Assembly: GCA_965178125.1 (NCBI GenBank)
Contig: OZ237736.1
Location: forward strand, 1,674,001-1,738,000
DNA: 64,000 nt
Direction of reading: 5' to 3'
DNA from: Bilabrum cf. latius
Taxonomy: Eukaryota
Shown here: piece after piece, positions 1,573 through 63,451 of the stretch
Numbering within the stretch: the first letter of the stretch is position 1
How the letters are laid out: every line of letters begins with the position of its first letter
Position numbers and translations under genes: made by a program
Notes under the pieces: model-generated
What the model was told of the DNA's origin: nothing
What the model saw: the letters and a program-made list of their open reading frames with translations, nothing else
The model's database searches: none

Positions 1573-2203
1573 TCAGATGTGGCTAGGGTAGAGCATCACT
1601 CGCAGCGACGCGCCCATGGCGGCAGGCGGCAAGTTGCGGCGGAACTTAGCCCGAACAATGCCAGAGGTACCATGAGAACGAACAACCTTGCCCCAGATGA
1701 CCCTGAACTTGGTGCCATCGCGCTCGGCCTTGCCCTTATAGATGTACGCTACGCGCTTGCCAAGGTAGAACTTGCCCTCCTCGGTCGTCTCTACACCCTC
1801 TACCTTCACGAGAGCAGTGTGGGAGTACTGGTTCACCTTGGAACTGCAGAACGAAAAAGGCGCAAGTATTTATACATGCTGTGCATCAATGCTTTCTGGA
1901 ACAGCTGCATTGTAAAGGCTAAACTCAACAGGCAGTCTCACCCCTTGTATCCCACAAACTTCCCACGCACGTACAAACGAACGGGCTCCTGCGATAAAAC
2001 AAAATGGTATTTAGCGATTTGAGCTGCATTGGAAGACTGCGTGGCCATCTGAAGCCGTACAAGCGACAACCATCTACTGCAACAGCTCCATTTGTCGACT
2101 TTCGATGAGCTCAACAAAGCAGCTGGAAACAATCACCCACAAGTGCTACACTTCGTACTAAAATACATGCTTTAGCATCCTATCTTACCTTGCTGGCCGA
2201 CAT
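1573..2203 (-). CDS. RPL35A: 60S ribosomal protein eL33 (L35a); exons 2203-2189, 1988-1942, 1843-1573
   Basis: [38 protein letters not shown]...[12 protein letters not shown]...[27 protein letters not shown]...RVMLYPSHI. Two GT-AG introns restore the frame; TGA stop. Confidence 0.95.
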
Positions 2204-2416
2204 AATACCACGGAAATCCTATATATTGTTTCAGCGGTCGTCTCTGGTGATCGGATCACCCCTAACCCTACGTAACAAATCGAAAGTGCTGCTGCAGCAG
2301 TTGCTTTGTGTTTGCAGTTCGAGTAAGACAAGAGCATTGCAACAGTAGAATAGCATACCATTAAATATATTACAGCTATACGAACAACACAGAAAAAGGA
2401 TATCATTGATGCGACT

Positions 2417-3009
2417 TTATCTTGCCCGAGCCATTCCGTGGCCGCCGCCGGCACCCAGTTCTGCTGGTTCTACCCGTGCAGACTTCTCCGTAGTACCCCT
2501 CCCGGAATCTGAATCGCAAACTGGCTTCGCATCGTGTGGCTCTTCGACTAACTCTCCTGTGGTTTTGTCGCTTGTCTTGCCAACGACTCGCTTCGATTCT
2601 TGCTCCGTTTCTGCCGTGGCTCCCCCTTTGAGATATCCCCACATCCGGTACAAAAATTCCCCTGTCCACAAACTGATAAACCACCTCCACTGTGCGTGAA
2701 AAATGCGGTAATCGTGCGAAATATGATTATAGCTTGCCTGGAATTCACCTAGAGCGATATGCAAGGAGCAGGTGCGTGCGAGTGGTATCTCCATTGCTGT
2801 AAACTTACCCAAGATTGACCCTTCGGCCAGAACGCGGCCCGGATAGTTCGTGGCTTGGGAGTTTCGGTGTCCACGTCGCTGGATTCGGTGTCGCGGAATT
2901 CGCATTCTAGGTCTTCACCTCCATCGGATGACGCTACCATCATAATAAGGGCGACAGATAAAAGTACCGCCGAGAGCCCAAATATGACGAATCGCAAGGG
3001 ACACACCAT
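2417..3009 (-). CDS. Small membrane-anchored protein, 'MCPLR...TGxxL(W/Y)' type; probable intron 2808-2690
   Basis: N-terminal MVCPLRFVIFGLSAVLL hydrophobic segment. A GTAAGT donor at 2808 and CAG acceptor at 2690 (alternative 2738) join it in frame to WRWFISLWTGEFLY; TAA stop. Resembles a small conserved uncharacterised family (from memory). Confidence 0.6.
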
Positions 3010-3159
3010 GCCAAACCCGCTGGTGTGGTCACCCGGGAAACCACTTTGGAAGTTCCATCACGATACCAGCGAAAGTTCGTATTCCGTTGCGACCCACCAC
3101 CGGCGCCAAAACTGCAACCGCAGATATTTCGGACGAAGAAATTAGTATCTTGGAGATAC

Positions 3160-6432: not shown

Positions 6433-7620
6433 TTACCCGTCCGCTGCAGCGGCAGCCGCCCCCCCGCCATCCGAGTCCTCCTGCCCGTCTCCGTCCATTC
6501 CATCTTCCTCATCTACGTCCCCAACCTGCACGTGCGCAGCCCGGCCGGACGACTGATTGGCCGTCGCAGCCGCACCCGAGAAGTCTCCCTTGGCTCTCGG
6601 GTGCGGCTTGCCCTTGTCTTCCTCGTCTCCTTTGTTGGACGGCTCCAGGCAGTAGTACCGTAAGACCCACTCGACCTAGATCGCCACTGCGGCCAGTGCC
6701 CCGAGGAACACGAGCACCACCTCGGCTCCCGCCGCGTTGTACAGCTCCCTCGAGGTCTGGAAGCAGGGGCCCGCGAGACCGAACCAGGCAAAGCCCACGA
6801 TGGCCCACACGATGGTGAATCCAAGAATCAAATTGTATCCCAGCCACAGTGGCCACCACACCTTGAAAGGACACGGGCCGATGGTCTGCCAGGCGAAGAA
6901 TAGAACCAGCAGGTACGCCAGTCCGGTATTGCCGCGAAGATACGTGTCCAGTGGCTGCGTGCAGTCAGTGGAGGCCCCGTATAGAACCAGCGAGTTCGCA
7001 AATATTACGATCACCGCCATTGAGACCGCGCTCCACGGGGACAGCAAATAGGTGGGGGCCGCGACGTGACACACGCGAGCCCAGACGGCATCGGCCCTCG
7101 CCTTGGCCCGCAGGAAGTCCTTAGAAAGATCTACTCTCTCCTCCCGCTCACGCTCGCGCAAGTCCTACTTGAGCTAAGACACGTTTGCCCTCAGGCCAGC
7201 GCTGCCCTCTTCCTCGTCTTCGTCGGGAAATGCGCGTCTGGGATTGCCGTCCGAGTCAACGGCATCCTCGCCCTGTACTGTATTGGGCGCAGATTCATTC
7301 AAGCCAGGTGAAGGTTCGGGACTTAGCAAGCTAGAACCCACATTGGTGGCGGTGCCGTTTCCACCATCATCGAGATCTGGCGTTTCACCGGGTGTTGCTG
7401 CAGGCGTTGGATTCTCCTAGCCTGCAGTGCTGCCCTCTTTCGGGGTTGCAGCCCCACCTCCTTTCTCAGGGGAATTTCTAGTGCTACCATTGTCTGAATT
7501 CGGCTATGTCTGAACAGTTAGACCTATTGTAGGATCATCAGCGGGAGGCGCACCCTCTGCCTGACCGTTGTTTCCAGCGACATCTTGGGCATTGCTAGCA
7601 CTGCCTGCTGCACCCGACAT
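6433..7620 (-). CDS. Hypothetical multi-pass (~4 TM) membrane protein, ~395 aa
   Basis: Frame open from ATG 7620 to TAA 6433 with only TAGs in frame; four hydrophobic segments within 6680-7050. Confidence 0.7.
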
Positions 7621-17327: not shown

Positions 17328-20210
17328 ATGAGCACATCTTCTGTTTCATAGACTGCTAAAGCCGCTGCTGCTGGAAGAGCACCGGACACTCTGCCTCCGC
17401 ACCTGCCGGTGCGAGCTGGAGAACGGTCTATCGTGGAGGGTGCAGTCACGGCAGTCGCACCAGGGACAGATGCTGCATTTTACAATCAAGTTCAGGTTCT
17501 TAACAGGGATGTCAGCACAGCTGCTTTACGGGTTTGGGATCGCCGTCGCCGGAAAGAAGCGACAAAGAAGTAGGTAGTCCGAGCCGTGAAAAGTGCACTC
17601 GTTCGGGAGCTGAGGAAGAACGAGGCTGGGCCGAAGGAAGTCTGGACGGCTGGAGGTACTATGGCCGGAGGGATGGGGAGTGCGGAAAGCATGGATTCGA
17701 AAGAGGAGGGATCCCCGGAGGAGGTAGCAAAACTGGCTGAGGCAGCAATTGCAGAAGGCTACAAGGCCCGCTTAGCCGCAGAGACACAAGACGATCCAAG
17801 CAGTGGTGATGCTGCTTCGAGTGGAAGTGGTCCAGTCCCTGGAGACGGGCTCCCAGGAATGAGGATTTTTGAGGCGCTGGCAGCCACGGGCCTCCGAAGC
17901 GCGCGGTACTGCAGGGAGGTCCCCCGAGTGGCCGAGTGCATCGCCAACGACCTCCAGCAAACTGCAGTTGAGGCTGCAAAGCGAAACCTGGCGCTAAACG
18001 GAGTGTGCCCGCAGCGAGCTCGCGCACAGCGTAACGACGCCATCGCAGCCATGTTCGAGGCCAGACTGCCCCTCGAGCGGTTCGACGTAGTGGACCTCGA
18101 CCCCTACGGCTCCCCGGCCCCATTCCTGGACACCGCGCTGTAGAGCGTGGCAGACGGGGGCTTGCTCTGCGTGACAGCCACGGATATGATTGTGCTTGCA
18201 GGCAGCATGACCTCTGTGGCCTGGGCCAAGTACGGCAGGCAGCCGGTCAAGGGGGGCAGCGTCCATTCCGAGCAGGCGCTGCGGCTGGTGCTGGGCACTG
18301 TGCATGAGGTAGCTGCCCGGCACAGGCTGTGCATCCAGCCGCTGCTGAGCCTGTAGGCGGACTTCTATCTGCGGTGCTTCATTCGGGTGTGGCGCCAGCC
18401 CCAGGGCGCCATCGTGGGCGGGGCCATGCAGGGCATGCTGCTGCAGTGCTCCGACTGCCCTGCATGGTGGGTGCAGCCGCTGGGGAGGGCGCACTTCGGC
18501 GGGAAGGGCGGCACGAGCAAGGGAAAACGCAGTCGCAAGGCTCGATCGAAGGCCCAGGCTACCAGTAGCGCTGATGAGAGAGAAGGCGGGAAGGACGCGC
18601 CACTTGGAAGCGGTTCTGCCGGCTGTGCATCTGCAGGGAAGGTGGCTGATAAGACCGTCGTGGCCCCTGGCTCCTCCGCAAGCAGCAGTGTGAACACTTT
18701 AAGTTCGTCGCAATCTGCTGCACACCCACCGAGCCGCCCCGCTCCAACCTCTGTGACACTCGGAGCACGCCCCGAGTGGGCCTCTGAAGGCACTGCCGGG
18801 CTACCTGACGTCGAGCGCATGCCTCAAAAAGTAACCCCTGCCCGGGTGTCCGTTGTGGACAGCACCGTTGGGAGGGCTGGCAAGCGGCCTAGGCCTGACC
18901 TGGAGGTAGCGCCGGCGACGGAGCCCGGTGTCAGCGCCCTGGGTCCCGGTGGGGTGTGCGGCGTGTGCGAGGGCCCAGTGAGCATCGGGGGGCCTCTGTG
19001 GATGGGGCCACTGCATGATCCCGCCTTTGTTGATGACGTGAGAGGGGAGCTGGGGGCTCTGCTGGGAGATGGCAGACACAGCGGTGCGTCGGATGGTGCA
19101 GCGAACTCCGGTGCAGGCGCAGATGCAAGCGTGGACACAACAGTCGACTGTGGTGTAGATGAGTATGCCGGAGGGTACGCCGTGCCTGCCTCACTATTTT
19201 GGTTGGCTCCAGAACAGCACAGCGAGGGAGTCGGCGAGCCGCTGGAGCCCTGGAGGTGCCCTGTTGAGACAGTGGTGAACCAGCGTGTGTCGGGGTCGGT
19301 CAAGCATGTCCAAAGCGCCAAGCATGCGCCAGCCGTGTCTGCGTCCGCAACCGACCCCATGTCTGCCTCTCAAGCTCCGTACGCGGCTCCGATCGGGTGC
19401 TAGCAGCTGCCCTTGCCTCTCGGTCCTGGGGAGCAGGCCGTCACTGGCCGCCGCTCTGGGGAGGCACCTGACGCCGGCAGCAACGACATTGCCACTGTCC
19501 GGACATCCCGGCGCCGCCTCTTGGGCCTGCTAGGTGCGATTGGGTCCGAGCTGCTGGACGCCCCCTTCTACACGATCCCCTCTGCGTGGAGCAGCGCCAC
19601 CAAGGTGCTGCAGGGGATGCCTCGGGGGGAGCTGGAGGCGGCGCTGCACCGGCTGGGATACCGCACCAGTCCCGCCCACGGATCAGCCCACGCTGTCAAG
19701 ACCGATGCTCCAGCTGGGGCGATCGCTGCAGTGGCGAGGGCCTGGGCGCTTCGCCACCCTAACCCCAAGGTGCAGGCCGAGCTGGAGGCTGCCAGCGCGG
19801 CGGGTGCGGACGCGAGTGTTGGCCTGTCCCTTGCTGCACGCATCACCCGCGGGCTGCCTGGGGCCATGGGCCGCAGGGCAGATGCGCTCCGAGACGCCGT
19901 GCAGTTCGGGGGTCTTGGGGATCCAGCCGGGGGTGTCTCCTCGTCCTCATCCTCGTCCTCAGCGGCGAGGGGTGCTCGCAAGGAGAGGCATGCACAAGGG
20001 GTCAAGTTCCTCTCAAATCCGTAGCCCGCCTGGGGGCCCAAGCAAAGGGCTAGGGGGGTCGGCGCCAGCGAGACTCAGGCTGCCAGAGGCGGGGAGCATC
20101 GGCAGTCACAGCCACAGCCAGACATGGAGGACGGCGATGCGGCTGCTGGCAGAGCTGGGGGTGAGCCGGCCTCCAAGCGCCCACGAGTGGACGGTGTACC
20201 ATCATCGTGA
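17328..20210 (+). CDS. TRM1: tRNA (guanine26-N2)-dimethyltransferase
   Basis: [96 protein letters not shown]. One frame with several TAGs; TGA stop. Confidence 0.95.
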
Positions 20211-22195: not shown

Positions 22196-22277
<82 letters not shown>

Positions 22278-28875: not shown

Positions 28876-31287
28876 TTAGGATGGACTAACGCTGCCAGCC
28901 TGGCTTTGTTCACCGTCTTCCCCGTCGGCAGCCGAGCGACTCGGGCTTCCAGACACTTCCCCGGATTTCGGTTCTGCGAGCCCGCCCTCAACGACACTGC
29001 TCCCTTCCGACTTGCTCTCCTGCTTTCCAGTCCCTTGCGCGCTGCCTTTGCTCCCACCTGTAGGCTACTGCTGCAGCGCCGCTTCTGCCTCCCTGCGGAT
29101 GCCCTCCACTTGCGATGCAGCCGAGGGCCCCGCCCCCGCTGCTGCGTCCAAGCGGGAGAGTGGCAAGGGTGCGACTCCCATCTCTGCAGGGGCGCCAGAG
29201 GGCCCACCAGTATTCCCCCCTGTTTCCAGACCTGCCCGGCGCTGAAGAGCATTCAGCTCGCCTGCAAGCCGCCCCGCCAGCGACTGCCACCGCGCCACCT
29301 CGCCCTCCGCAGCGTCGCCCATGGCCCTGGCATCTTTGCTGGCTGCCTCCCGCTCCTGCAGCAGCAGCGCAATCAACGCGTCTTTGGCTCCCAACAGACG
29401 TAGGAGCTCCTGATGACGCCTCAGCAAGGCATTCCTCTCTGCGGTCTCCCGGGGCAGGGCGCCCTGGGCGCCGCGCACAGCCGCAGGTGCCTCGGCCTGC
29501 TCGCCCTCCTCCTGTGCACCGGACTCGGGCCCCAGCGCGGCCTCCGGGTCTGAAACAGGCTTGGCGAGCAGGCGGTCTGCGTCGGCGCAAAGCTCCGGGT
29601 ACCCGCGGAGGAACTGCAGAGCCTCGCCGGCCTGCTGGGCGGCGCCTCCCAGACCCAGCCGAGCAGACTGCTGGGAAGGGGCGAGCACGCCGCCCGAGCC
29701 ATCGGGGGACTGGTCAGGGCCCCCGGGCAAAGATCCCCCGAAGGCTGCAGGCGCGGCCTGCCTCAGCTTGGCGGAGAACTGGTCAATGGCCCGCACGTCA
29801 CCGGACACGAGCTGCGCCCCGTGGTCAAGGAGGGAGGCACGCAGCGCCTCGGCGGACCGCAGCCGGTGCAGGATTGCCTCGCAGTCTGCAACTGTCTCGC
29901 GCTCAATCGCTCGGCGCTCGCTGGCGAGGGATTCGCGCCGGGCCGCAGCCCTGGCCAGCCTGTGCACCAGGACCTCCCGCTTGGCCATGAGCCGGGCGTG
30001 GGCTGCCGCCAGTCCGGAGAGCCTGGCGTGGTATGCCTCGAGCAGGGATGGGCTTGCCCGCTGAGACGGGGCCATCATCAGCGAGCTAGACATGGGCGTG
30101 CCGGTTTCGTGGTCACCGGCTGCTCTCTGCCCCTTGCCCAAATCGTCCCCGCTGCTGCCTTGCGAAACATCCGGGCCGCCCGGTGCCTGCGAGTGCTCGG
30201 CCCTGCCGATTGCAGCGGCTAGCGCCCTCGAGGCCTCGCCGGGGGACGAACCGTACAGATAGGCCCCCGAGCCAAAAGGTGGCGGGCCCCCCATCTGGCC
30301 CAGGGGCGGCGCTGGCGGGGCATACGAGCCCATGGGGGCAGACCACGCGCCCCACCCGAGGCCTTGTCCTGGTCCAGCGGGTGCTCCCATCGCGCCTCCC
30401 AGAGAACCAATGCCAGGCATGGCCATGCTACCAGGGTCTACTCGACCTGCTCTGGCATCTGAAACTAGCCTGCGGAACTCGTGAGGCTCCAGCGCCCCGC
30501 TGCGATCGGCGTCATACTGGTTGAGCACGGCTGGGGCGGCAGCGGCGGCCGAATAGGGATCAGGCCCCGGCCCCAGCGGCCATGGTGTAGGCAAGGCATG
30601 TGCGTACGGGTTCGACAGATCTCGCTGCATTGCAACAGCCTGGCCGGCCTGGCTGCGCTGAGACACATCGGCAAGCATATGGGATAGAGCGGTGCCATCC
30701 AGACCCGCTTGCGACCCAGCCGCGCCATGCGCTCCTGCATACCTAGCAAAAAGCCTTCCTGCCTCAAAATCTGTGCGGGGGGTAACACTTGCGCCACCGG
30801 CGGCTTTTTCCTTGGCGGAAATTTCATCTAATGCCTTGCTTGGGTTCACGCCAGAGTCCTTAAGCATCCGCAGAAAGGACTGGCGATCAAGAGCAGTCCC
30901 TCCGTTGGCGGCGTATCTATGAGGTGGGGCATGGTGCAACATCTACACAAGTATGTCAAGATTTGATAGCCATGTAAGAAAGAGCGTTTGCTAGGCTGGG
31001 CGCGCTCACCTTTCGAATAGCGCACCGGCAGAAAACTCGGTTGTCATGGCTGGGACAGGCGCGGCTGCAGCTGCAGGAGCAGGTGCAGCTGCAGTAGGTT
31101 TGGTCCCAGATTTTGACTTTGATGATTTCTTTTTACTCTTTTTGTCCTTGCTGGAAGCTGCGAGCAGTTAAATCACAATTTGATCGACCCGACGACAACA
31201 GCTTGCAACGAAGAAGCGGCAAACGTGATGTGGCCACCACCTGCACTAGCAAGACTGGAATAGCTTCAGGTTCTTACACTTTGGCAT
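28876..31287 (-). CDS. EF-hand / coiled-coil protein; introns 31277-31158 and 31009-30917
   Basis: EF-hand-like QYDADRSGALEPHEF and repeated (D/E)F.AG.LF.RY. GT-AG introns restore the frame. Reads through TAG 29065 to TAA 28876. Confidence 0.7.
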
Positions 31288-31433: not shown

Positions 31434-32446
31434 ATGGTGTCCATGCAGGGTGAGATGGGTGCAGTTATCATGATGAGGACTCAGGAAGCTTTGGAGAAGG
31501 GCATTGAGGATCTACGCTAGAAATACGCAAGGAAGGATGCTGAGAAAAAGGCCAGAGCCGCTCGAGGCGAAGATATTGATGGCACTGCAGCTGCTGGTGG
31601 TGCGAGCGCAGCCCCTAGTGGATCCGATGCTGCTGAATCAAGTGGTGTGAAGGATGGTGATGATACAGGCCCAGATGCTGAGCTGCGAGCATTGCGGGCA
31701 CGTCGTCTCGCCTAGTTGAAGAAACGAGCCAAGAAAACAGCGGAAGCAAGAAAAGCCGGACATGGAGACCTGAGAGAGATCAAGGAAGAAGAATTCTTGA
31801 AGGAAGTAACATCAAGCAAGAGAGTCGTCGTGCATTTCTTTCACGGGGACTTCAAACGGTGCGCCGTGATGGACAAGGTAAGCCACACCATTTGGACTGC
31901 TGCGACCCGACTTCATCACAAACGCGCAATAATTTGTCCCAACTGCTGCGCACGACTTGTTCCTCGCAGCATCTTCGCGTCTTGGCCCCAAGGCTTGCTC
32001 AAACCAAGTTCTTGCGACTGGATGCTACCAAGGCCCCGTTCTTCGTCGGCAAGTTGGCGGTCCGGATCATGCCAACACTTGTTGGGTTTATCGATGGAGT
32101 TGCGAGGGGCAGGCAGCTTGGATTCCAAGGGCTCGGGGGATCAGAGGATTTCAACACGGGGCTGCTCGTTGAGGTGCTGCGTGGTATGGGAGTAGCTGAC
32201 GAAGAGGAGTGCGTGCGTGTTCTTGATGAGATCGAGAGCCGGGGCACGATCGTTGCTGGAAGTGCGGTGACTGGGTCTAGCGCTACCACAGGCGATGCGG
32301 ACGATGTCCTGGCCGACAAGCTGGATGCAGCACGCGCAGACGGTGCTGACAGCTCGGAGCTGGCCCGAATCCGCATGCAAGAAGAACTCGAGAGACGGAG
32401 AGCTGCATACGTTAAGGCGCTAGATGATGCCGACTTGGAGGGCTAA
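31434..32446 (+). CDS. Phosducin-like protein 3 / TXNDC9; intron 31878-31969
   Basis: ELRALRARRLA*LKK...GHGDLREIKEEEFLKEVTSSKRVVVHFFH.DF.RC.VMDK|HL..LA.....KF...DA.KAPFFV.KL.VRIMPTL...DG. TAA stop. Confidence 0.9.
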
Positions 32447-40380: not shown

Positions 40381-43032
40381 TTATTCATCCTAGTGGCAGG
40401 ACCGCGTTGGAGATAGCAGCCGGCTGAAGTAGCTAGGAAGCCTACGCTCCCCTGTTGGTAATGATTTGGCTACTGGCTCACGCTGATGCTGAGAGGGCCT
40501 GATCTGCCGATCTTGGTCCTTGACCTTGTTATCTTGGACCAGATATCGTCGAACTGGACCCTCCGATCGGTGCCCCTACGGCTCAAGAACCTGCTTGCCT
40601 GTGTATGCTACAGGGGCCTGTATCGAGCGTCGGGTTGCTATTCTCATCGACTGTCGCGGCCTTCCCGTAGAGTGTTTCGCGTCTCTTGCAGCCACTGAAG
40701 ACGTACGAAGTGGGGAACCTCGTTTCCGTGAGTAGACATGGCCGTGGTCTGGGGCACACATACTGACTGGAACCTGCCGGAATCTTCCGGACGATCTCGA
40801 TGGGCTGCGATGCTTGGCTACTTCTGCTTTTCGCTGCCGCGGAGAGACTGACCAAACTGCACCACTCAAGGAAAATTGCTCACCGCGGTCTTCACGGTTC
40901 AGTAACGCCTCAAGGTGATCGAATCGAGCTGACAGCTGCCTGCGCCATGCCACACTAGATGCGCCCTGTTCAGCTGGATCAGCGCCTGGTTCTCGGGTCA
41001 CTCGTCGACTTCCTGCTGTCGTTTCAACCCCTCGAATACTCCGTTGGTCACCATGTATGTCGAGGTCTTCCGACTCCCAGGTGGATCTAGCGCCTGTTTT
41101 CTCGCCGTAAACCGCTGGCATGATAGTGGGTGCTAGATCTACGGCAGAAGTGTGTTCAGGAACTGTCTGTCCGCTGGCAGGTGTGGTGTCTGTGTTGTGC
41201 TCAGGAACTGCTGGCCTGCAAGGGTCAGCAGTGTCTGCATCCTGCCCGAGATTCGCTGCCGTCCAAGAGGAAGAGGTGTCTGCATCCTGCCCGGGAGCCG
41301 CTGGCGTCTAAGAGGAAGAGGTGTCTGCATCCTGCCCGGGAACCGCTGCCGTCCAAGAGGAATAGGTGTCTGCATCCTGCCCGGGAACCGCTGCCGTCCA
41401 AGAGGAATAGGTGTCTGCATCCTGCCCGGGAACCGCTGCCGTCCAAGAGGAAGCGGTGTCTGCATCCTGCCCGGGAACTGCTGGCGTCCAAGAGGAAGAG
41501 GTGTCTGCATCCTGCCCGGGAACCGCTGGCGTCTAAGAGGAAGCGGTGTCTGCATCCTGCCCGGGAACCGCTGGCCTGCCGCGTTGGAGCACGGCATCTG
41601 TGACTCGGCCGATAGGTGCTGGGTTGGCTGTTATGCCTAGTTTTCTGCTTCTATTGGTGGCATCGAGCTCAGCTTGGCAAAGCATGGCTTCGTGGTCCAG
41701 TCTTTCCCAAATGGCCCACTGCTTGGCCGCATGTACGTCATCTTGAGTGCCCAATTTCAGATACTCAAGCGATGTTGCGGGGTCCCACGGCCCAGCTGCT
41801 ATTGTGCCGGTTGCAGCAATCGCTGTAGCTGCTGGTGGCCCTCCCCGAGCGCCCGCGCAACTTCCGGTGCTCCCTTGGAGTGGAGTTTTTGTCTGGACCT
41901 CCTGCGCTACCGCTGCGGACTACCCCTGGCTGCACTCCGCCTGTGTCTGCGCCCTGGTACCATTTTCTTCAGTCTGGCTCCCTGCACTGCTTGCTTCCGA
42001 CTGCCGAATTGTCAAGCGGCTTGCCCCATGGTCGGCCTGGCACTACTCTTGGAGCAGCCGCCGCGCCTCGGTTGAGGCCAAGCTCGCCCTGATCATTTCC
42101 ATGCGTCGGAGAAGGGTGCTGCATGAGCCCGTGTCAGCAAAATGTGCATAGCTACCTGCAAGCATGAACTTCTTCAAGCAATCCATGCACCGACCCCATC
42201 GCTGGTTCTGTAGAGCCACACGAGCCAAGCGTTGCTCGAGCTTCCGGATTGGCCAATCACACGTGGCCATAGAGCGATTCTACTTAGTGAATGAATCCGC
42301 GTACTATCTACACTATGCGGGCCCGTCTGTCTTTGCGAGCTGTATCCACCGACACGTATCCTTCAAAATGTGCAAGTGGCCTTCAACTACACCCTCAAGC
42401 TCCGCCGCTGCAAGTTCCACTTGTCTCATCTGGTGCTTAGTGGCTTGCAAGAGTAAGCCGCTGATTTTTGCAGCGACCAAAGCACAATCGACCGCCTGCT
42501 ACAGCTACGCCCTTGATCGCAGGGATGAGTCAATTATGAGGTCTGCCTCCAGTGGCGTGCTACGCAAGCCCGATTCACCACGCAGCTTTACGTCGCTTTT
42601 TTCTCCCCTGAATATGCGCAGAGGCGGGGTGCAGGTCTGGTTCGTGGGACTGCTTGCCAAGTATTTGGGGCTTATATCGAAGTATGTGAATGCACTATCG
42701 CCACCAGCCTTTGGGTCGCGACCCCCAAAATCATGCCATACGCCTTTCGAATGCTATACAGCGCGTCTTTTTGGGGGGGTTTCTAATCCTGTTTGGAGCA
42801 CAGGCACAGAAGTTGTTGCATCTCGAACAAGGCGATCAAGGAGCACCGCCCCGCGCTCAGCTCTTATCCCCTTGCCGGCAGCGAAGCGCGACTCTAGTAA
42901 TTTGCCTGATAAATTCGGGTCACCTACATCCGCGTATCTAGTCGCTTGCACTGCGTGCTGCGAACCTGATTTCGGTTCTTGAAGCCTTGGTGTCCTCTGC
43001 GACTGCGACTTCGTTTCGACGGCATCGCACAT
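40381..43032 (-). CDS. Hypothetical protein (~883 aa) with 15-aa tandem repeats
   Basis: ORFs 42754, 42043, 41533 and 40576 are co-frame with only TAG between them; ATG 43032, TAA 40381. Confidence 0.7.
41231..41575. repeat. 45-bp coding minisatellite, ~7.7 copies (DTSSSWTAAVPGQDA on the minus strand)
   Basis: Unit gtgtctgcatcctgcccgggaaccgctgccgtccaagaggaagag recurs every 45 bp. Confidence 0.9.
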
Positions 43033-43300: not shown

Positions 43301-45203
43301 TTACTTCCCGCCCGCAGAGTCGGCAGTCTGCCCAGTGCCCCCTTCCTCAGCTTCTTTCTTGGCGCGCTCTCGAGCCCGTGCCCTCTTGTTCTTGCGCTTG
43401 CGCTTGCCTCCCCCAGCGCCTGCGCCAGCTCCAGTTTGTGGCTTGATAAAGTCAGCGCCAACCACCCCGCCACCAGAGCTGCCTCCGCCCCGACGGCCAC
43501 CTCCACTGAGCCGGCCCGCAGACGCCATGCCCCCTCCGACAGACGTGGCGGCAGGTCCAGATGGACCTCCTCGGCCCCGCATGGTAGGAGGCACGTACTT
43601 GCCTGGAACGTACTTCTTGGGTGCGCCACCGCTTGCACCTCCCCCTGTACCACCTGCGGGTGCAGGGCCAGCTCGCCGAGAGCCCGATGAGTCGATGCCG
43701 CTGCCGCTGCCACCTGCTGATGCGCCGGCTCCAGCGGCTGCGGCGGGTGCAGACTCCGGTACCTCCTTTGGATACCCCTCTGCCGAAGTTGGCACTGCCT
43801 TGGCTTCAAGAATGTACTCGAAGGGGGTATCGGAGAGGGCGGCCCCGCCCGTGTGGTGGAACACGCGGATCTTGTTGTCCACTCGCATGCGAGGGTGAGT
43901 CGTGCCCGAGACTATGTAACGGCCACATCGACTCCAGCTAAAGTCAATAGTATCTGCCATTCGCGAATCGCCGACCTTCTTCATGCGCTGGGCATCCCAT
44001 ATCTCGACACGACCGCTCATGTTCCTGAAGCCGCCCAGCGCCACAAACCGACCGCGGGGACTGTAGATCACAGTGTTCCGAGGACCCTCCCCGAAATCGA
44101 AAATAGCCTTTGCAGACGGCTTGCGTTTGTCGGTCCCATGCAGGTACCTGTACAGCTAAGCAGCGGGTGGTGAGTTGCCCCCAATGACTACGAAGTCGCG
44201 GGCACCGTCGCTGGGTCGGACATACGGCGACCAGGCAACGCAGTGCACGGCACCAGGTTTGGGAAGCACAATGGCTTCTGTTAGTCGGCCGCAGTTACTT
44301 GCAATGTGCAGGAAGCTCTCGCCATAGTACGATTTGTCACTGGTTTCCGTGGAGGCCGTCACCAGCACTGCAGCCCCATCTGGGGACCATTCGAACTCGG
44401 CACTATCAACCATCAATGCCTTGTTCGACACAGCTGATTTAGAGGATGAAATGTCTGACATGCTGTACACTAGCATTCTTGCCGGCTGTCCTTTTCTGCG
44501 AGGAACGAAGGCGGCTAGGGAAGCCGAGCTGGCATCCTTGCTCGGGGCCAAGCTGACAGCAGTCACCCCATCGAGCTTGCCTGACACATCCGGCTTGTCC
44601 ATGTTTGGCTTCTCTGCATTGTAAACACGAATGGCATTTTCCCTGCGCAGCACGAACTGGGACTCGTCCTGGGTCCACTGTACCACTGGCCAACATCTGT
44701 GTGGGCTCTCGCGCTCGTGGAACTCGCACAGTTTCGCGCCGTCTGAGACTCGCCATACCATAACATTAGCTGCAGGCACAAGGGTGTAGATGCAACAATA
44801 AAGGCGTGGTTTCATTGCCAGGATGACGACGCATACATGGGCAACCGTGCGGGCACAACTCACGCCTACTATCTATCTTCCGATGCATTGTGCATACGAA
44901 AGCCCCGCTAGGCGAAAATCCGGCCTTTTTAACCTCTTTGTGATCTAGAGTGCACAGCGTGCTGCATTTTCCATCCAGGGACACCACCTGCACGCCATCC
45001 TCATCGGAGGCCAAAACAGCAAGTCTGCCATCTTGACTGCATTCGCTCACTGCAAACTCTCCATCGGCCACCACCTTAACAACTCTTGGGGCAATGCTCG
45101 TTGCAGATGGTGCTGTCATCAGCACGACTCTCCGCTGCTCCCGCACGAGCAAGTACGACTGCGCGGCGGGGCCTGCAGTCGCTGCTCCTCCCACAGCTGC
45201 CAT
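43301..45203 (-). CDS. EIF2A: Eukaryotic translation initiation factor 2A; intron 44863-44770
   Basis: FSPSG, WP.VQWT.DE, W.PDG...LV...TE..DKSYYGE, G.VH.V.WSP, FDFGEGPRNT..YSP.GR...LGGF.N..G..EIWD, PRMRVDN, KYVPP.MR. In-frame TAG at 44156; TAA stop. Confidence 0.92.
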
Positions 45204-45835: not shown

Positions 45836-46359
45836 TCACTTGTCCGCCATTTTCTCCACGAGCAGAACAGGCTTTAGGATGTTGCTCTTGTTTGTCTCCA
45901 CCACTGCACCGTTGGTAACCATTTCTTCCAAAATAAAGTGGGCCTTCTCGAGGTTGAACATTATGTCAAGCTCGCACACGTTCTCGAAGTACTTATCCAG
46001 GGTCTCCACGAAGGCGTGGATAAACTCCAGCATTCCGAGCTCGTTCTGCGGAAAGATTTATGCTAGTGCAGTTAAAAAACATTGGTCCGGAAAGTGCATT
46101 GAGCGACAAATCAATACGTATCCATGCTTACCTCTTCCTCAGGATCACAGCCCACAATGAAGTATAGGGATGCATACCTACGATAAACTACCTTGATTCC
46201 CCTGTACTCCATGAATGAGCATAGGCGTTCACTTCGGCCCAAGCAACGTCGAATGATCTCGCTCTCCACAGCAGTCCGCTCTTCGATTGTCTTAAACTCG
46301 TAGTAATTAGCTAGGCGCGTTTGCCCTTGCTTGTTAACCATCAAGATGAATTTAATCAT
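45836..46359 (-). CDS. AP4S1: AP-4 adaptor complex sigma subunit; intron 46131-46046
   Basis: [20 protein letters not shown]...[21 protein letters not shown]...[45 protein letters not shown] stop. Confidence 0.9.
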
Positions 46360-52500: not shown

Positions 52501-53018
52501 GCTCCGCGTCTGCTCGGGACCAAGAGCTAGGCGTCGATCTCACGGCTGGCCGAGTAAGTAGGGGGCGTGATAGCTCTCTTAGTGGCGAGAAACTGGGTCC
52601 AACAGAGGACCGGGACGAGAGCAATTTCAACTTGCTGTCTTCAAAGGCGGGTGCATCGAAATTGACCACCGAGGACAGTCCGAGCAAGGGTGCAGGAGCA
52701 GCCATGGCATCTAGGTCTAAGGAATCGGACGGAGCAGATCGAGGCGTGCTTGACGGATGGCGCACAGCTACAGGGTCTGATGAGTTCGTCATCATAGCAT
52801 GTGACGGTCTGTGGGACGTCATGAGCAGCCAGTAGGCCGTGAACTTCGTACGTCGACAGCTTGCTGAGCACGGTGACCTTGTGCGAGCTGCCAATGAGCT
52901 CGTGCAGAAATCACTTGAGCTATTCACCATCGACAACGTCACAGCAATCATCGTTGGTTTCATGAGAGAAGGTGCTGGCGAGCCTGCAGTTGCTGGCGAC
53001 AGCCTGATGACCGTGTAA
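46548..53018 (+). CDS. N-acylated cNMP-binding domain + CaMKK/SnAK-like kinase + PP2C (PPM) phosphatase fusion, 2156 aa
   Basis: One intronless frame with only TAGs. MGCGSSK start; F*PGSYVVHQGEKGDSFYII.KGEV...GHFFGEMAL...PRNANV (cNMP); IGQGAFGKV, YAVK, HRDIKPSN, DFG, GTPAFQPPE (kinase); R*GKPDYMEDR, FAVFDGH, ANVGDTR, LSKDH, LAVTRAFGD, IACDGLWDV, DNVT (PP2C). TAA at 53016. Confidence 0.9.
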
Positions 53019-53133: not shown

Positions 53134-53143
53134 ATTCTCCAAT

Positions 53144-58600: not shown

Positions 58601-61600
58601 TTCCTTGGAAGGTTCCGGCGTACTCTCCAACGGACGCCAGCGCCGCATATGGACGAATTCGCTCTTGCATCACGGCATACCGTGCGTGTTCGAGCCGTGT
58701 TCCGTGTATGACTCCTCGCAGCAACTGATCCCGACAGCTATGCATGTACTGAACTGTTGCTGGGTTTGGTACAGCAACTGACACTGAGCGTTCACCACAC
58801 ACCTCAAAGCCTACGCCAAAACTGCAGTACATGGCCATATCCGCATCCTGTTGCGGCCACAGCTGTCCGTACGGATGAATTATGGCTGCGAGATCTCTCA
58901 TACCTCGGCGTTGATGACGTCCAGTCCAAGCAGGTGCTCGCGCCGCGCCGCGGTACAGCTGTTCCCGAGCACTGCGTGTCAGTGTTTTCCTGCTCACCTT
59001 CCTGTTTGTAGCGCCTGACGCCGATCGCTTGCCATCTCCTGTTGGACCAAACCATTCACCTCTGCGGCCTCTGGCAAACTCCTCATCGCTCTCATCCATT
59101 GCGATCTCCCGAGCACGTTCTTCTTCTGCCTGCTGGGCAGCCAAGTCTTCATGAGCTTTGCGAAGCTGTCCCTGTGCTGCCTGTTGCAAGAGAGACATAG
59201 GATTGCATGCTTTGCAGCCCACTCGCTAGGCGTAGAACACGGAGCACCTGGCTATCTGTCTCATCAGCAGTATCATGAGGAAGCAGTTGTAGTGTGATAC
59301 TAAGTGCAGATGATCAAGTAAAGAGTCGTGACTCAAAGACCACTCGTAGGAGCTGCTGTGCTATGCTTCATCATTCTCCACGCCACGTTGCTTAGCGAAG
59401 TCGTCGTCCTCATCCACGTCCACGTCGGTGTCGTCTGAATCGCTCTGCGCAGCAGCACCACCGCTTATTCCCACGCCTTCATTCTGCTGAGCCTCGTCAG
59501 AATCAGAGTCAGAGTCACTCAACTAGTCAACGGCTGGGTAGCCAAGCCACCGTACCCAATGAAATGCGCACGAAAGCAACCGGGATGGGCTTCTGTGCAG
59601 GGTGTGAGAGCCAGGCCAGAATCTACTTGTCTGTGGACCAGGTCCACTCCCAGCGTGTGCGAGCGACGAATGGTATCCACCGGCTTGGCCTCCACCACGT
59701 TGGACACGTACCACTAGCTCTGGACCTAGCCAGTCGAGCCTGCTGGCAGCAGCCGTGAGCCCGCAGCCGAAGACGTACAGCACACAGCTTCGGATCACAT
59801 CCACATGGGAGCCCTGGGTCCAGAAGCCTTCATGCATACTCATTTCTACAACACCCTCAGTATCAAGCGTTTGCTGCAAGGACTGAGACGGAGGTTCGAA
59901 CGAGTCTATCAGGTCACGGCAAAGATCAAGCAATCCACTAGGTACAAGAATAGATACCGTAGCAGCACCAACATCGAAAAGTTGAACGTGGATGTCAGCA
60001 GCGAGTCCGCGCAGTATACGAAGCGTTGGCAATTTCGACGATTGATCGTTTGCGTTTTCTGCTTGCGTGCTGACAGCCCTACTCCACAAGGTTCCAGAAT
60101 GCGGCACCACTGAAGCCCACCCTTCCCTTGCAGCCTTGTCGACATCACGATGGAACTATCGGGTGCACTCCTACTCAATTAGTTTGCTATACTTGGTAAC
60201 ATCAGACAAGGCCCCGGCAGCCAACACCCGGATGCTTGAGCCACCAAGTCCATTCGGACACTTCTGCTGCAGATCGGTCACCTTGGATCGTAAGCTATCA
60301 ATCTGCTCTTGGTCGCAACGACGCTCAGCCCACAGCATCGCAGTTTGCTAGTCTTTGAAAACGTCATCCCCGTCATCAAGGAATGCTGTCCATGATATGC
60401 GCATTGATCCGCCGGCAGGCGGCCGCTGTGCGTGCGGGGCGCGAACTACCACGCCAGTTGAGGGTGATTGAGACAAGCTGGTATACGACGGAAGCAGCGA
60501 ATCTGAGTCATGTACACCTAGAACGCCATCTGTGATCCAGTCCAGCAGTGCATGGTCCGATCCATCAAGCCCCAGTGGGCTTGCCAACGTGTGAGGCAGA
60601 AAGTGGTTCGAAGTCTCGTCTGCACTGGATCCATTGAGGTCTGCGACAGCTCCAAGAACAGTGAACCCATCTAAATCAAATGCAGAATCGCTGTGACAAG
60701 ACAGCGGTACGTTTCTGGAACCTGGTGCAGACTTGAACGCTCTATATATCGCAGGCTGGTCCGGAATTGTGCTGTCCATTGATCTTCGCGGAGAGGCCGA
60801 GCTTGACAGGCCTCGGCTTGCACTCGGAGTGACGGGCTAGCTGGATGTTCGACTCTCTTTGACAGCGACTTTCTTCCTTGCTGCGGCACGAGATCCTTGC
60901 CTTCGGACGGCGGGCAATGGAGCGAACCCAAGGCACATGCCTGCCAAGAAGTCCAGGGGGGATGACAGGTGCTGTAGAGGTCCAGACTCCGTTTCTGGTT
61001 GGGACATCTGATCGAGCGAGCTGCCAGTGGCCTAGCTGGCACCACGAGAACTACTGCTGTGGCTGCTTGCGGCGCCTGACGACTGTCGACGGCGGCTTGG
61101 CGAGCTGCCAGTGGCCTAGCTGGCACCACGAGAACTACTGCTGTGGCTGCTTGCGGCGCCTGACGACTGTCGACGGCGGCTTGGCGAGCTGCCAGTGGCC
61201 TAGCTGGCACCACGAGAACTACTGCTGTGGCTGCTTGCGGCGCCTGACGACTGTCGACGGCGGCTTGGCGAGCTGCCAGTGGCCTAGCTGGCACCACGAG
61301 AACTACTGCTGGGGCTGCTTGCGGCGCCTGACGACTGTCGACGGCGGCTTGGCGAGCTGCCAGTGGCCTAGCTGGCACCACGAGAACTACTGCTGGGGCT
61401 GCTTGCGGCGCCTGACGACTGTCGACGGCGGCTTGGCGAGCTGCCAGTGGCCTAGCTGGCACCACGAGAACTACTGCTGTGGCTGCTTGCGGCGCCTGAC
61501 GACTGTCGACGGCGGCTTGGCGAGCTGCCAGTGGCCTAGCTGGCACCACGAGAACTACTGCTGGGGCTGCTTGCGCCTCGTGACGATCGTGCACGAGTAG

Positions 61601-62292
61601 CCGTTTCAGGAAGTTCGAATCCCCGCATCTCACTGTGTGCTCCTGACATCTCTGCTCGGGCAGCGAGAGCAGCTTGGGCAGGCAGATATCCAGTTGGCGC
61701 GTACTAGCAGCAATCAACCAGCGATACGTATGTATGCAGATCTGACTCCTTAATCAAGTCGTCAATTAATTGTTTGTGAAATATTTCTGCATCAGCGCTG
61801 GGTGTATCGTAGACCGTGAGAAGATCGGCCAGCATGCCATTTTCGATGACATCGCTTGAGACTCCAAGTTCTCGAAGGCACTCCTAAATCTCTTCGACTT
61901 CGATGCCATCCATCTGCGATATAATAAACTGAAGTTCAATATACTGCGGTTGCTGCTGAGATGTACTCCTATTATCCCAACTGTAGCTCTGGCTTACTTC
62001 AGCTGGCGGATTCGGCTGCTGGGGATCGAAAGTGCGGATCATCTCTAATTTCTCTTCGGATATCTGCGTAACAATGCAACATAAGTATGTATTGAGCTGT
62101 CTGCGGCGGATAGCAAATCAATACTGCCCATATACTCCACATAGAACTCACTGGAACGTGCTACCAAAACAGAGCTCGACGATTCATTGCTCGCTGCAAT
62201 CTTTTGAGTACTTTGTGCATAGATTGCATCTAGCGTGTATCATCTAAGACTTTACATGCATCGTCAATGGAACACAAGGTTTCGTCAGACAT
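55614..62292 (-). CDS. Giant orphan protein (~2200 aa); exon 62063-55614 plus probable exon 62292-62152
   Basis: Seven tracked ORFs (55614, 56250, 56691, 57630, 58296, 59523, 60348) share one frame. I read the gaps and upstream region: ~6.45 kb with ~20 TAGs and no TAA/TGA until TGA 55614. A GTGAGT (62151)...CAG (62064) intron links it to ATG 62292. Confidence 0.8.
61016..61575. repeat. 84-bp coding minisatellite, ~6.6 copies (SPSRRRQSSGAASS[H/P]SSSSRGAS*ATGS on the minus strand)
   Basis: Near-identical 84-bp units, each with one in-frame TAG in the giant-ORF frame. Confidence 0.92.
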
Positions 62293-62503
62293 CTTTAGGC
62301 CGGTTCTGGCGCAAGCAATACTCAACGGAATATTGTGCGCGTCCCCCTCGTGGGGGGCGAGTGCCACCAGTGGGGGGTGCGTGCGGCGCCGCGCTCGACG
62401 GCGGAACACAGTATCTCAAACTGCAAGTGGTCTCGAACATCAAGATTTTTTTGTTTGCTTGCTGGCATTTTGTTTCTCTTCTGCCAGGCAGTGTGAAAAA
62501 TAT

Positions 62504-63451
62504 ATGTCAGACCATGCATCACCGTGGGCATTGCTTGGATTGAAGCCTGTAGACTTCGCAACGGAAAATCTCGCAATCCGCCGAGGCTTGTGTATCGCAG
62601 CTTGCGGCATATCGGTTGAAACCGTGCGGTGCATCTTTTAGGATGGTGCCTATGTATCTGCGCGATAGCGTACATCACTTCATAGTGTAATGCAGCGTAT
62701 TTGTGCGACAGATGACGGCAAAGTGCTGCGTGTCGACCCAAGCTTCTTGCTTGCGGAAACAGGCCAAAGACACTTGCGTTATGCTATCAATAGTATTAAA
62801 GAGAAGTCTGACGACGCAATCAGACGTGCCATGATGAAACTGGCTCCACAGAATGGGTTGGCGTTGCATGGAACCGGCAAGCACGCACCAAGCTCGTCGA
62901 AGCACGTCGAAAAGATGGCATGTGCTACTGCAGCTGAAGACGACACTGCAAATACTCAAAAGGGCTCATACCTGAGATCATCTGCCTCTGGGTGTGCAAG
63001 ATCGGAATCGAAAGGCAATGTTGGCTCAGGCTCCAGCCAGTAGCACCGGCGTGCACGGCGGGGCTAGTCCAAGGTCCACGGCCAGAAGATGCCGACTCAA
63101 GCCCAAGTATACTCGTGGCAAGAGGCAGTACTGCATCTGCGAACGCTCTGTGACGCATGCGAGCAGAAGGCTCACCTGACCGGAGCGGAAGCTCGCAGCT
63201 TGGTCAGATTGGCTAGCAGCAGCATCGAACCAGCTCTCGGGCGTCTAATGCAACTGGCGCGCGCAGACAAGTCTAAGAGGTCTGTGCCACTTAAGCGGAC
63301 TGCTACAGCGAGAACGAGCCTATCGCGTACACCCGTCGAGTTGCCCAAAAGGAGGAGAGGGGAGAAAAGGAAATTGCTCGCTGGGGATGCGACGCCATCG
63401 AAAAGGTGTAGGAGCATCCCTGGTGCAGTTTCGTTTCTTTCAGGGAAGTAA
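62504..63451 (+). CDS. Orphan basic protein (~315 aa), divergent from the giant ORF
   Basis: ORFs 62267, 62690 and 63089 are co-frame, separated only by TAGs (62639, 62666, 63041, 63065); TAA at 63449. NLS-like PKRRRGEKRK. Start ATG 62504 is inferred. Confidence 0.6.

What the first reader, a model, noticed from the sequence alone, without database searches (positions are those of the whole stretch)
1573..63451. UAA and UAG are uncoupled: TAA still terminates genes
Seen: of 25 complete models, 8 end in TAA (2417, 6433, 28876, 32444, 40381, 43301, 53016, 63449) and the rest in TGA. TAA closes PhLP3, eIF2A and the PP2C fusion after their conserved C-terminal regions, and I found no in-frame TAA in any model. 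Established: most eukaryotic stop reassignments move UAA and UAG together; UAG-only reassignment (the layout of NCBI table 15) is rare. Inference: this needs an eRF1 that reads UAA/UGA but not UAG, plus tRNA-Gln(CUA) without a UUA-anticodon tRNA.
Basis: partly seen in the sequence, partly recalled or inferred. Interest (0 to 1): 0.85.

Follow-up and report, generated by a model that had tools for sequence, protein, structure and literature searches.

The report
TAG codes glutamine, TAA still stops
In this GC-rich protist chromosome end, TAG is used inside genes as a glutamine codon while TAA and TGA still end genes, a rare but already described kind of genetic code found here in what is probably a new lineage.

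Summary
They close open frames that carry many in-frame TAG but no TAA or TGA. In 20 long frames (16,873 codons) I count 144 TAG, 0 TAA and 0 TGA. About 63 TAA would be expected if TAA were used like TAG (CAA:CAG = 208:475).

A window-wide test that assumes no gene models gives the same answer. 0 of 49 TAA triplets with open flanks have coding-like sequence on both sides, against 69 of 320 TAG.

TAA falls where orthologues end. 19 cNMP-kinase-PP2C orthologues stop 9-26 residues after the last PP2C motif, and the window protein stops 26 residues after it. A 95%-identical relative's eIF2A ends at the same codon.

TAG most likely means Gln. Q holds 54 of 75, 16 of 19 and 82 of 145 residues at three conserved columns, and the close relative has Q at a fourth site.

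The proposed mechanism, tRNA-Gln(CUA) plus an eRF1 blind to UAG, could not be tested: the window has no tRNA gene or eRF1 and no genome is held.

UAG-only codes are already published. The host looks like a stramenopile, a group for which my searches found no report. Here UGA, not UAA, is the main stop (16 of 24).

The parts
2417..2419 (-). TAA ending an exon-like open frame (2417-2905) with no family match
   Evidence: triplet; codon score 0.26 before the TAA, -0.14 after; no Pfam family
6433..6435 (-). TAA stop of a 395-aa membrane-like protein (6433-7620)
   Evidence: score falls from 0.45 to 0.08. The next in-frame TGA lies 350 codons on, running antisense through the FAM161 gene (Pfam).
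28876..28878 (-). TAA stop of a 688-aa protein (28876-30942, with a 5' intron)
   Evidence: Spliced contig X5 record 14 covers 28796-30916 and joins on to 31010-31157. The next in-frame TGA lies 125 codons on (weak).
32444..32446 (+). TAA stop of the thioredoxin-fold, PhLP3-like gene (31434-31875, intron 31876-31967, 31968-32446)
   Evidence: (GT..AG joint in X5 and X11). The relative's RNA-type contig stops matching 14 nt after the TAA.
40381..40383 (-). TAA stop of an 883-aa repeat-bearing protein (40381-43032)
   Evidence: a second in-frame TAA follows 13 codons on and a TGA 20 codons on.
43301..43303 (-). TAA stop of eIF2A (43301-45031, 5' part probably split by introns)
   Evidence: Pfam eIF2A 2.6e-44. 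Relative P0001 (95% identical) ends at the same codon. Score falls from 0.34 to -0.12.
53016..53018 (+). TAA stop of the cNMP-binding, kinase and PP2C fusion protein (46548-53018, 2156 aa)
   Evidence: Pfam. 19 orthologues end 9-26 aa after the PP2C DN motif; this protein ends 26 aa after it. A second TAA follows 10 codons on; the next TGA is 288 codons on.
63449..63451 (+). TAA ending a weak 394-aa model (62267-63451) next to the telomere
   Evidence: low coding score 0.04; weak model
18141..18143 (+). In-frame TAG in TRM1 (aa 272) at a conserved Gln column
   Evidence: Q in 54 of 75 homologues
52833..52835 (+). In-frame TAG in the PP2C domain (aa 2096) at a conserved Gln column
   Evidence: Q in 16 of 19 orthologues
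787..789 (-). In-frame TAG in Nop14 (aa 83) at a conserved Gln column
   Evidence: Q in 82 of 145 homologues
44156..44158 (-). In-frame TAG in eIF2A (aa 292); the close relative has Q here
1573..1575 (-). TGA stop of RPL35a (last exon 1573-1869)
   Evidence: Pfam L35Ae matched to profile position 95 of 95, six residues before the stop
45836..45838 (-). TGA stop of the clathrin-adaptor sigma subunit (last exon 45836-46057)
   Evidence: Pfam matched to profile position 141 of 142, three residues before the stop

Best explanation
The window is nuclear DNA of a GC-rich, gene-dense, intron-poor protist, probably a stramenopile. Its nuclear code has UAG reassigned from stop to a sense codon, most likely glutamine. 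UAA and UGA remain the only terminators, with UGA the commoner one.

Shown here:
- TAG is frequent inside conserved genes and stays TAG in spliced transcripts.
- TAA and TGA never occur in frame inside genes.
- TAA lies where orthologues end.
- Coding signal stops at TAA just as it does at TGA.

Inferred, not shown: UAG is read by a tRNA-Gln with anticodon CUA. That anticodon cannot pair with UAA, which is why the two codons can part ways. No UUA-anticodon suppressor would exist, and eRF1 would have lost or weakened its recognition of UAG while keeping UAA and UGA.
For: 1. Reading TAG through raises frames of 300 aa or more from 18 to 53; reading TAA through gives only 22.
2. The 20 long frames hold 16,873 codons: TAG 144, TAA 0, TGA 0. 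A-ending codons are not rare (CAA 208 / CAG 475, GAA 324 / GAG 687), so about 63 TAA would be expected if TAA behaved like TAG. The 95% upper bound on in-frame TAA use is about 0.018% of codons.
3. A model-free scan of all 578 TAA triplets (both strands; those within 60 codons of a window end were skipped) found 49 with 60 open codons on each side. 0 of those 49 have coding-like codon usage on both sides. The figures for TAG are 69 of 320, and for TGA 1 of 149.
4. Codon-usage score drops across each of the six TAA stops scored, as it does at TGA stops. The drop is small at 40381 (0.06 to 0.01).
5. For the PP2C fusion, 19 orthologues end 9-26 aa after the last conserved motif, and the window protein ends 26 aa after it, at TAA.
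6. A relative's eIF2A (95% identical over 391 aa) ends at the same codon and has Q at the window's TAG.
7. Q is the majority residue at three conserved TAG columns: 54 of 75, 16 of 19 and 82 of 145. Human Nop14 has Q at another TAG. Summed log-odds over 16 TAG columns rank Q first (0.83, against S -2.17 and A -4.37).
8. 20 of 21 in-frame TAG codons in 28300-41200 lie in contigs of run X5. Those contigs skip four GT..AG introns and show 0 other letters, so TAG is neither spliced out nor edited.
9. TGA as a stop is validated by RPL35a and the AP sigma subunit, whose Pfam profiles run to their last positions just before TGA.
10. The mechanism is the one argued in PMC5304391 (passages read) and PMC11687900 (Introduction and Discussion read).
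Against: - The sample is only 64 kb, about 24 genes. Very rare or context-dependent sense use of TAA (below roughly 1 in 5,600 codons) cannot be excluded.
- No tRNA gene, no eRF1 and no proteomic or ribosome data were available, so the mechanism is untested.
- The codon that the relative uses at the TAA positions could not be read, because the difference table was cut (1018 rows not shown).
- Three TAA-ended models lack homology support.
- Not all conserved TAG columns favour Q. Two have a Ser majority (50 of 75 and 64 of 132) and one an Asn majority (74 of 146). The margin of Q over S in the summed score is only 3 bits.
- The tool itself labels run X5 'RNA? (probably DNA)'. I infer RNA from its spliced joints.
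Confidence: 0.85

Rival explanations
1. TAA is also a sense codon, either UAR=Gln as in Tetrahymena and Hexamita, or a dual stop/sense codon as in Blastocrithidia or Condylostoma. It would simply be very rare in this GC-rich genome.
For: The genome is GC-rich (0.55-0.64) and TAA is the rarest of the three triplets (608 against 1228 TAG and 1588 TGA on both strands). The sample is small.
Against: A-ending synonymous codons are used at 44-48% of their G-ending partners, so GC bias predicts about 63 in-frame TAA, not 0. 0 of 49 open-flank TAA triplets have coding signal on both sides. The PP2C and eIF2A proteins end at TAA where orthologues end.
Confidence: 0.04
2. TAA and TGA are stops, but TAG encodes another amino acid: Ser as in Scotinosphaera, Leu as in the rhizarian exLh, or Glu.
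For: Two conserved TAG columns have a Ser majority (TRM1 aa 343, 50 of 75; Nop14 aa 100, 64 of 132). PDB homologues show E at the NKAP and cyclophilin TAG sites.
Against: Three conserved columns have a Q majority, and the 95%-identical relative has Q at a TAG site. Summed log-odds are Q 0.83, S -2.17 and E -19.5. Leu is not among the eight best-scoring residues and is the top residue in only 1 of 16 columns, a poorly aligned one.
Confidence: 0.08
3. TAG is ambiguous: sense inside genes, but also a terminator at some gene ends, depending on context.
For: This cannot be excluded from 24 genes. One gene has a TAG two codons before its TAA (aa 881 of 883). TAG is slightly scarcer in the last 20 codons (1 seen, 3 expected; not significant).
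Against: None of 24 models needs TAG as its stop. TAG is spread along genes in all deciles. McGowan et al. found no dual use in the comparable ciliate cases (PMC11687900, Discussion).
Confidence: 0.07
4. Artefact: the TAG-interrupted frames are pseudogenes, assembly errors, or are repaired by RNA editing or splicing, and the organism uses the standard code.
For: None found.
Against: 144 TAG lie in 20 otherwise intact frames with strong family matches. Spliced contigs carry 20 of 21 TAG unchanged. In the rows that are shown, a separate species-level relative lists no change at the in-frame TAG at 28377-28379. Independent runs hold the same sequence.
Confidence: 0.01

Closest known systems
Iotanema spirale (fornicate): UAG=Gln, UAA kept as stop (Panek et al. 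2017, PMC5304391, passages read)
   Same: The same code layout: only UAG is reassigned, to Gln. The same inferred mechanism: a CUA-anticodon tRNA-Gln and an altered eRF1.
   Different: In Iotanema UAA is described as the dominant stop; here TGA closes 16 of 24 genes. The window carries an ATAD3-type mitochondrial AAA protein. Its TRM1 and kinase-PP2C proteins group with stramenopiles, so it is probably a different lineage. Identity with Iotanema was not formally excluded.
Ciliates with UAG=Gln only: Hartmannula sinica, Trochilia petrani, Protocruzia tuzeti (McGowan et al. 2024, PMC11687900, abstract, Introduction and Discussion read)
   Same: UAG is a widespread sense codon for Gln, UAA is not reassigned, and there is no sign of dual use.
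   Different: In the phyllopharyngean species of that paper, UAA is the stop of 86.9-98.3% of genes and UGA of 1.7-13.1%. Here UGA is the majority stop. The window has TTAGGG telomere repeats, about 90-nt spliceosomal introns and 58% GC. By my own knowledge, not from a call, ciliate telomere repeats are G4T2 or G4T4.
Rhizarian exLh and TARA phyllopharyngean ciliates (UAG=Leu); Scotinosphaera (UAG=Ser)
   Same: UAG and UAA are uncoupled, and UAA is a stop.
   Different: The amino acid differs. Here Leu is not supported, and Ser is less supported than Gln.
UAR=Gln codes (NCBI table 6: Tetrahymena, Hexamita, Ulvophyceae, Amoeboaphelidium as reported)
   Same: TAG is read as Gln.
   Different: TAA is also Gln there. 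Here there are 0 in-frame TAA in 16,873 codons, and TAA ends genes. Amoeboaphelidium genomes are about 40% GC (PMC10608142, Table 1), unlike this window.
Cafeteria roenbergensis (bicosoecid stramenopile)
   Same: It is the nearest named relative in the TRM1 tree (SH-aLRT 96). It shares the cNMP-kinase-PP2C fusion and has a GC-rich, gene-dense genome (PMC6972860, abstract).
   Different: Its genome paper mentions a non-standard code only for the mitochondrion (PMC6972860, passages read). Best identity is only about 40%, so it is not a close relative.

Membership tests
UAG=Gln, UAA/UGA=stop nuclear code (layout of NCBI table 15) | Frequent in-frame TAG inside conserved protein genes | tested here: met
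   144 TAG in 16,873 codons of 20 frames; 18 to 53 long frames when TAG is read through
UAG=Gln, UAA/UGA=stop nuclear code (layout of NCBI table 15) | TAG falls at conserved Gln columns of homologues | tested here: met
   Q in 54 of 75, 16 of 19 and 82 of 145; the close relative has Q. Against: two Ser-majority columns and one Asn-majority column. Overall Q ranks first by 3 bits.
UAG=Gln, UAA/UGA=stop nuclear code (layout of NCBI table 15) | TAA absent from coding frames and found at true gene ends | tested here: met
   0 TAA in frame; 0 of 49 open-flank TAA are coding on both sides; ends match orthologues
UAG=Gln, UAA/UGA=stop nuclear code (layout of NCBI table 15) | TGA is a terminator | tested here: met
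   0 TGA in frame; the RPL35a and AP sigma profiles end just before TGA
UAG=Gln, UAA/UGA=stop nuclear code (layout of NCBI table 15) | tRNA-Gln with anticodon CUA present, none with UUA | not testable with these tools
   No tRNA gene in the window; no genome held
UAG=Gln, UAA/UGA=stop nuclear code (layout of NCBI table 15) | eRF1 N-domain changes (GTS, NIKS, YxCxxxF) that fit loss of UAG reading | not testable with these tools
   eRF1 is not in the window; no genome held
UAR=Gln code (NCBI table 6) | In-frame TAA at Gln columns | tested here: not met
   0 in-frame TAA where about 63 are expected
Ambiguous stop/sense codes (Condylostoma, karyorelicts, Blastocrithidia) | The codons that terminate also occur in frame as sense codons | tested here: not met
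   Neither TAA nor TGA occurs in frame. Whether TAG ever terminates is inconclusive.
UAG=Leu or UAG=Ser codes | TAG at conserved Leu or Ser columns | tested here: inconclusive
   Leu: top residue in 1 of 16 columns. Ser: majority in 2 conserved columns, but summed score -2.17 against Q 0.83. The relative's Q argues for Gln.

The most novel reading that the evidence does not exclude
This is an independent, so far unreported origin of a UAG-to-Gln-only code in a GC-rich heterotrophic stramenopile related to bicosoecids. It would be shared by at least two species that differ by about 8% in DNA. UGA rather than UAA is the main terminator. That would be a UAG reassignment outside the settings of the published cases I read, where UAA is the dominant stop. 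It would argue against simple codon capture under AT pressure, and it would give a compact, telomere-to-telomere tractable genome in which to study how eRF1 separates UAG from UAA.
Probability: 0.45. Interest if true: 0.75.

Novelty: new member of a known kind. Interest (0 to 1): 0.6.

Why it matters
UAA and UAG almost always change meaning together, so each lineage that splits them is a natural experiment. It shows how a release factor and a suppressor tRNA can tell the two codons apart.

The published UAG-only cases I read about keep UAA as their dominant stop. They are a rhizarian, a fornicate and several ciliates (a green alga, Scotinosphaera, is also listed). This window shows the same split in a 58% GC genome where UGA is the usual stop, probably in a stramenopile.

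If confirmed genome-wide, it adds an independent origin and widens the conditions under which UAG can be captured.

It also matters in practice. Any annotation of this organism or its relatives with the standard code will truncate most proteins. All 20 long frames here carry at least one TAG.

Tried and rejected
- **Whole genome.** None is held, so there is no tRNA inventory, no eRF1 and no genome-wide stop tally.
- **The search of earlier findings.** Closed.
- **RNA genes.** ARAGORN and Rfam found none in the window.
- **Relative's DNA.** Scans of metagenome contigs and genome contigs with the eIF2A C-terminal half found no relative, so I could not fetch it.
- **Read laying.** Its table of other letters was cut (1018 rows not shown) and so was the indel table (106 not shown). 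I could not read which codon the relative has at the TAA stops, and I could not test TAG-to-CAG exchanges.
- **Deletions after the PhLP3-like TAA.** One relative run shows deletions of 3, 7 and 5 nt at 32494-32506. They sum to 15 nt, so they do not prove non-coding sequence, and I do not use them.
- **Contig ends.** Ends near TAA stops (X5 at 28796, X11 at 28835) are only weak hints, because contigs cannot show RNA ends.
- **The look-up of sequencing runs.** It listed no holder on record as RNA.
- **First eIF2A protein search.** It was swamped by low-complexity words and returned one hit.
- **PhLP3 label.** The PDB search with the last exon gave only chance matches (E about 0.04). Pfam gave no significant family on either exon alone.
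- **Amoeboaphelidium as the source.** Considered and rejected on GC content: about 40% against 58%.
- **Stramenopile literature.** Five literature searches found no report of a stramenopile nuclear UAG reassignment. The library lacks most subscription journals, and supplements were closed. The eRF1 alignment of PMC5304391 is in a supplement that I could not see.
Full report
**What the window is.** It is 64 kb of eukaryotic nuclear DNA with GC 0.55-0.64 and genes packed on both strands. It has a few short introns of 89-120 nt with GT..AG ends. It ends in a (TTAGGG)n telomere array.

Pfam finds ordinary eukaryotic genes: Nop14, FAM161, CCDC124, a PHD protein, TRM1, an M50B peptidase, NKAP, an ATAD3-like AAA ATPase, a cyclophilin, eIF2A, a cNMP-binding, kinase and PP2C fusion, RPL35a and an adaptor sigma subunit. 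There is a weak Tubby match, below Pfam's cut-off. There is no tRNA or other known RNA gene.

**TAG is a sense codon.**
- With the three standard stops, the window has 18 stop-to-stop frames of 300 aa or more (longest 863).
- Reading TAG through gives 53 (longest 2167). Reading TAA through instead gives only 22 (longest still 863).
- Twenty long frames together hold 16,873 codons with 144 in-frame TAG. Seven of these are copies within one 84-nt tandem repeat.
- The TAG codons are not removed or edited. Contigs of run X5 match the window with 0 other letters and skip four GT..AG-bounded stretches, so they derive from spliced RNA. The tool itself labels the run 'RNA? (probably DNA)'. These contigs cover 20 of the 21 in-frame TAG codons in 28300-41200.

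**TAA is not a sense codon.**
- The same 16,873 codons contain no TAA and no TGA in frame. These frames were defined as free of TAA and TGA, so the count alone is circular; their length is not. TAA occurs 58 and 79 times in the two off-frames of the same genes. Frames of 2156, 2142, 1641, 1183 and 1030 codons without a TAA would not exist if TAA were used like TAG.
- GC bias does not explain the absence. CAA:CAG is 208:475, GAA:GAG is 324:687 and AAA:AAG is 189:394. A Gln-coding TAA would therefore be expected about 63 times. The 95% upper bound on its use is about 0.018% of codons.
- I also ran a test that assumes no gene models. For every TAA, TAG and TGA triplet on both strands (those within 60 codons of a window end were skipped), I asked two things: whether 60 codons on each side are free of TAA and TGA, and whether both flanks have coding-like codon usage (log-odds above 0.1, trained on the long frames). 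For TAA, 49 of 578 have open flanks and 0 of those 49 are coding on both sides. For TAG, 320 of 1197 have open flanks and 69 of those pass. For TGA, 149 of 1586 have open flanks and 1 passes, in a different frame from the gene there.

**TAA terminates.**
- Codon-usage score falls across each of the six TAA stops scored, as it does across TGA stops: 0.45 to 0.08 at 6433, 0.30 to -0.10 at 28876, 0.34 to -0.12 at 43301 and 0.28 to -0.22 at 53016. The fall is slight at 40381 (0.06 to 0.01).
- Reading through TAA would add 350 codons antisense to the FAM161 gene at 6433, 288 codons at 53016 and 125 at 28876. In 3 of 8 cases a second in-frame TAA follows within 22 codons.
- Homology gives the strongest evidence. 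I aligned the 20 best hits that share the cNMP, kinase and PP2C architecture, out of 120 listed. In 19 of them the last PP2C motif is present, and they end 9-26 residues after it. The window protein ends 26 residues after it, at TAA.
- A protein from a close relative (P0001, 95% identical over 391 residues) is the C-terminal two thirds of eIF2A and ends at the very codon where the window has TAA. Which stop codon the relative uses could not be seen.
The relative's RNA-type contig stops matching 14 nt after the TAA.
- The name PhLP3 is not confirmed by a tool. Pfam gives only a thioredoxin match at E 0.13 on the last exon. The resemblance to phosducin-like protein 3 is by eye and recall.
- TGA as a stop is validated by RPL35a and the adaptor sigma subunit. 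Their Pfam profiles run to positions 95 of 95 and 141 of 142, a few residues before TGA.

**What TAG encodes.** I translated TAG as X and looked at homologues.
- TRM1 (75 of 99 hits aligned; the 24 left out were mostly further species of genera already present): aa 272 has Q in 54 of 75; aa 343 has S in 50 of 75 and Q in 5.
- PP2C domain: aa 2096 has Q in 16 of 19.
- Nop14 (all 150 listed hits): aa 83 has Q in 82 of 145; aa 100 has S in 64 of 132; aa 103 has N in 74 of 146. Human Nop14 has Q at aa 14.
- The 95%-identical relative has Q at eIF2A aa 292.
- PDB homologues show E at the NKAP and cyclophilin TAG sites, and R and K at the two CCDC124 sites.
- Summed log-odds over the 16 TAG columns with at least 60% occupancy rank Q first (0.83), then S (-2.17) and A (-4.37). 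Leu is not among the eight best-scoring residues.

Gln is therefore the best reading. I put it at about 0.85, with Ser as the main alternative.

**Does TAG ever terminate?** No model needs it to. TAG is spread over all deciles of gene length. There is 1 TAG in the last 20 codons where 3 would be expected, which is not significant. Dual use cannot be excluded from 24 genes.

**Mechanism.** The sequence shows the coding outcome only. The explanation is taken from the literature, not tested here. A tRNA-Gln with anticodon CUA reads UAG but cannot pair with UAA, whereas a UUA anticodon would read both by wobble. So capture of UAG alone leaves UAA free to remain a stop, and eRF1 must lose or weaken UAG recognition (PMC5304391, passages; PMC11687900, Introduction and Discussion). 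The window has no tRNA gene and no eRF1, and no genome was available.

**Which organism.**
- All 4 named proteins among the 20 orthologues with the full cNMP, kinase and PP2C fusion are from stramenopiles: Cafeteria twice and Albugo twice. A Tribonema protein lacks the PP2C part.
- I built a TRM1 tree from 33 of the 99 hits (the 22 named and 11 unnamed ones that I chose) plus the window protein. It puts the window protein next to Cafeteria roenbergensis (SH-aLRT 96). This is one gene, and Cafeteria's composition is flagged as unusual.
- Identity to Cafeteria is only about 40%, so the organism is at most a distant relative.
- Amoeboaphelidium, an algal parasite reported to read TAG and TAA as Gln (PMC6299283, passage), has about 40% GC (PMC10608142, Table 1) and is excluded.
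- A species-level relative exists. Contigs of runs X8 and X10 are collinear with 28300-41064 at about 92% identity (747 other letters and 157 gaps over 9.5 kb). The rows shown list no change at the in-frame TAG at 28377-28379. Of the 38 listed differences in that gene, 21 fall on third codon positions.

**Comparison with what is known.** UAG-only reassignment is published for:
- the rhizarian exLh (Leu) and Iotanema spirale (Gln) (PMC5304391);
- Scotinosphaera (Ser), Protocruzia tuzeti, Hartmannula sinica and Trochilia petrani (Gln), and three uncultured phyllopharyngean ciliates (Leu) (PMC11687900, Discussion).

So the kind is known. The differences here are the probable lineage, the GC-rich genome and the stop usage. 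Five searches found no stramenopile case. Here UGA closes 16 of 24 genes. UAA is called the dominant stop in exLh and Iotanema, and it closes 87-98% of genes in the phyllopharyngean ciliates.

**Verdict.** The tRNA and eRF1 mechanism is plausible and standard but untested. I rate it a new member of a known kind, of moderate to high interest for people who study code evolution. The runs that hold this sequence date from 2025, so its owners may already know.

Noticed in passing
window 53139-53767 and 63547-64000: There are two telomere-type arrays in the same orientation: 40 copies of TTAGGG at 53525-53767 inside the window, and 51 copies at the window's end (63693-64000). Each is preceded by its own 54-55 nt tandem repeat. 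The 10 kb between them carries a 2142-aa frame with no family match and a weak 394-aa frame. This could be a terminal element added beyond an old chromosome end (by recall, like yeast Y' elements set off by internal telomere tracts), or an assembly join.
   Followed up: partly
window 46548-53018 (+): A single 2156-aa frame fuses a cyclic-nucleotide-binding domain, a protein kinase and a C-terminal PP2C phosphatase. The same architecture appears in about 20 database proteins. The named ones are all stramenopiles (Cafeteria, Albugo).
   Followed up: partly
window 61016-61586 (-) and 41231-41573 (-): There are tandem repeats inside coding frames, of 84 nt x 6.8 and 45 nt x 7.6. The 84-nt unit carries an in-frame TAG in each copy, so a reassigned codon has been multiplied by repeat expansion.
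   Followed up: no
window 28300-41064: Public runs hold a collinear relative at about 92% DNA identity (two slightly different strains, in X8 and X10). Transcript-like contigs of the window's own organism occur in runs labelled as other organisms. This suggests it lives as a companion or contaminant in protist or algal cultures.
   Followed up: partly
window 32295-32633 (+): The long ATAD3-like frame opens upstream of, and overlaps, the last exon of the neighbouring PhLP3-like gene in another frame. The true start is probably a later ATG (32550 or 32634), so naive longest-frame models overrun here.
   Followed up: partly
window 8103-8864 (+) and 45836-46400 (-): Two further intron-bearing genes lie in apparent gaps: an auxilin-like protein with a C-terminal J-domain-like end (recognised by eye only; Pfam gave no match) and a clathrin-adaptor sigma subunit (Pfam 6.3e-23). 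Both end in TGA.
   Followed up: partly
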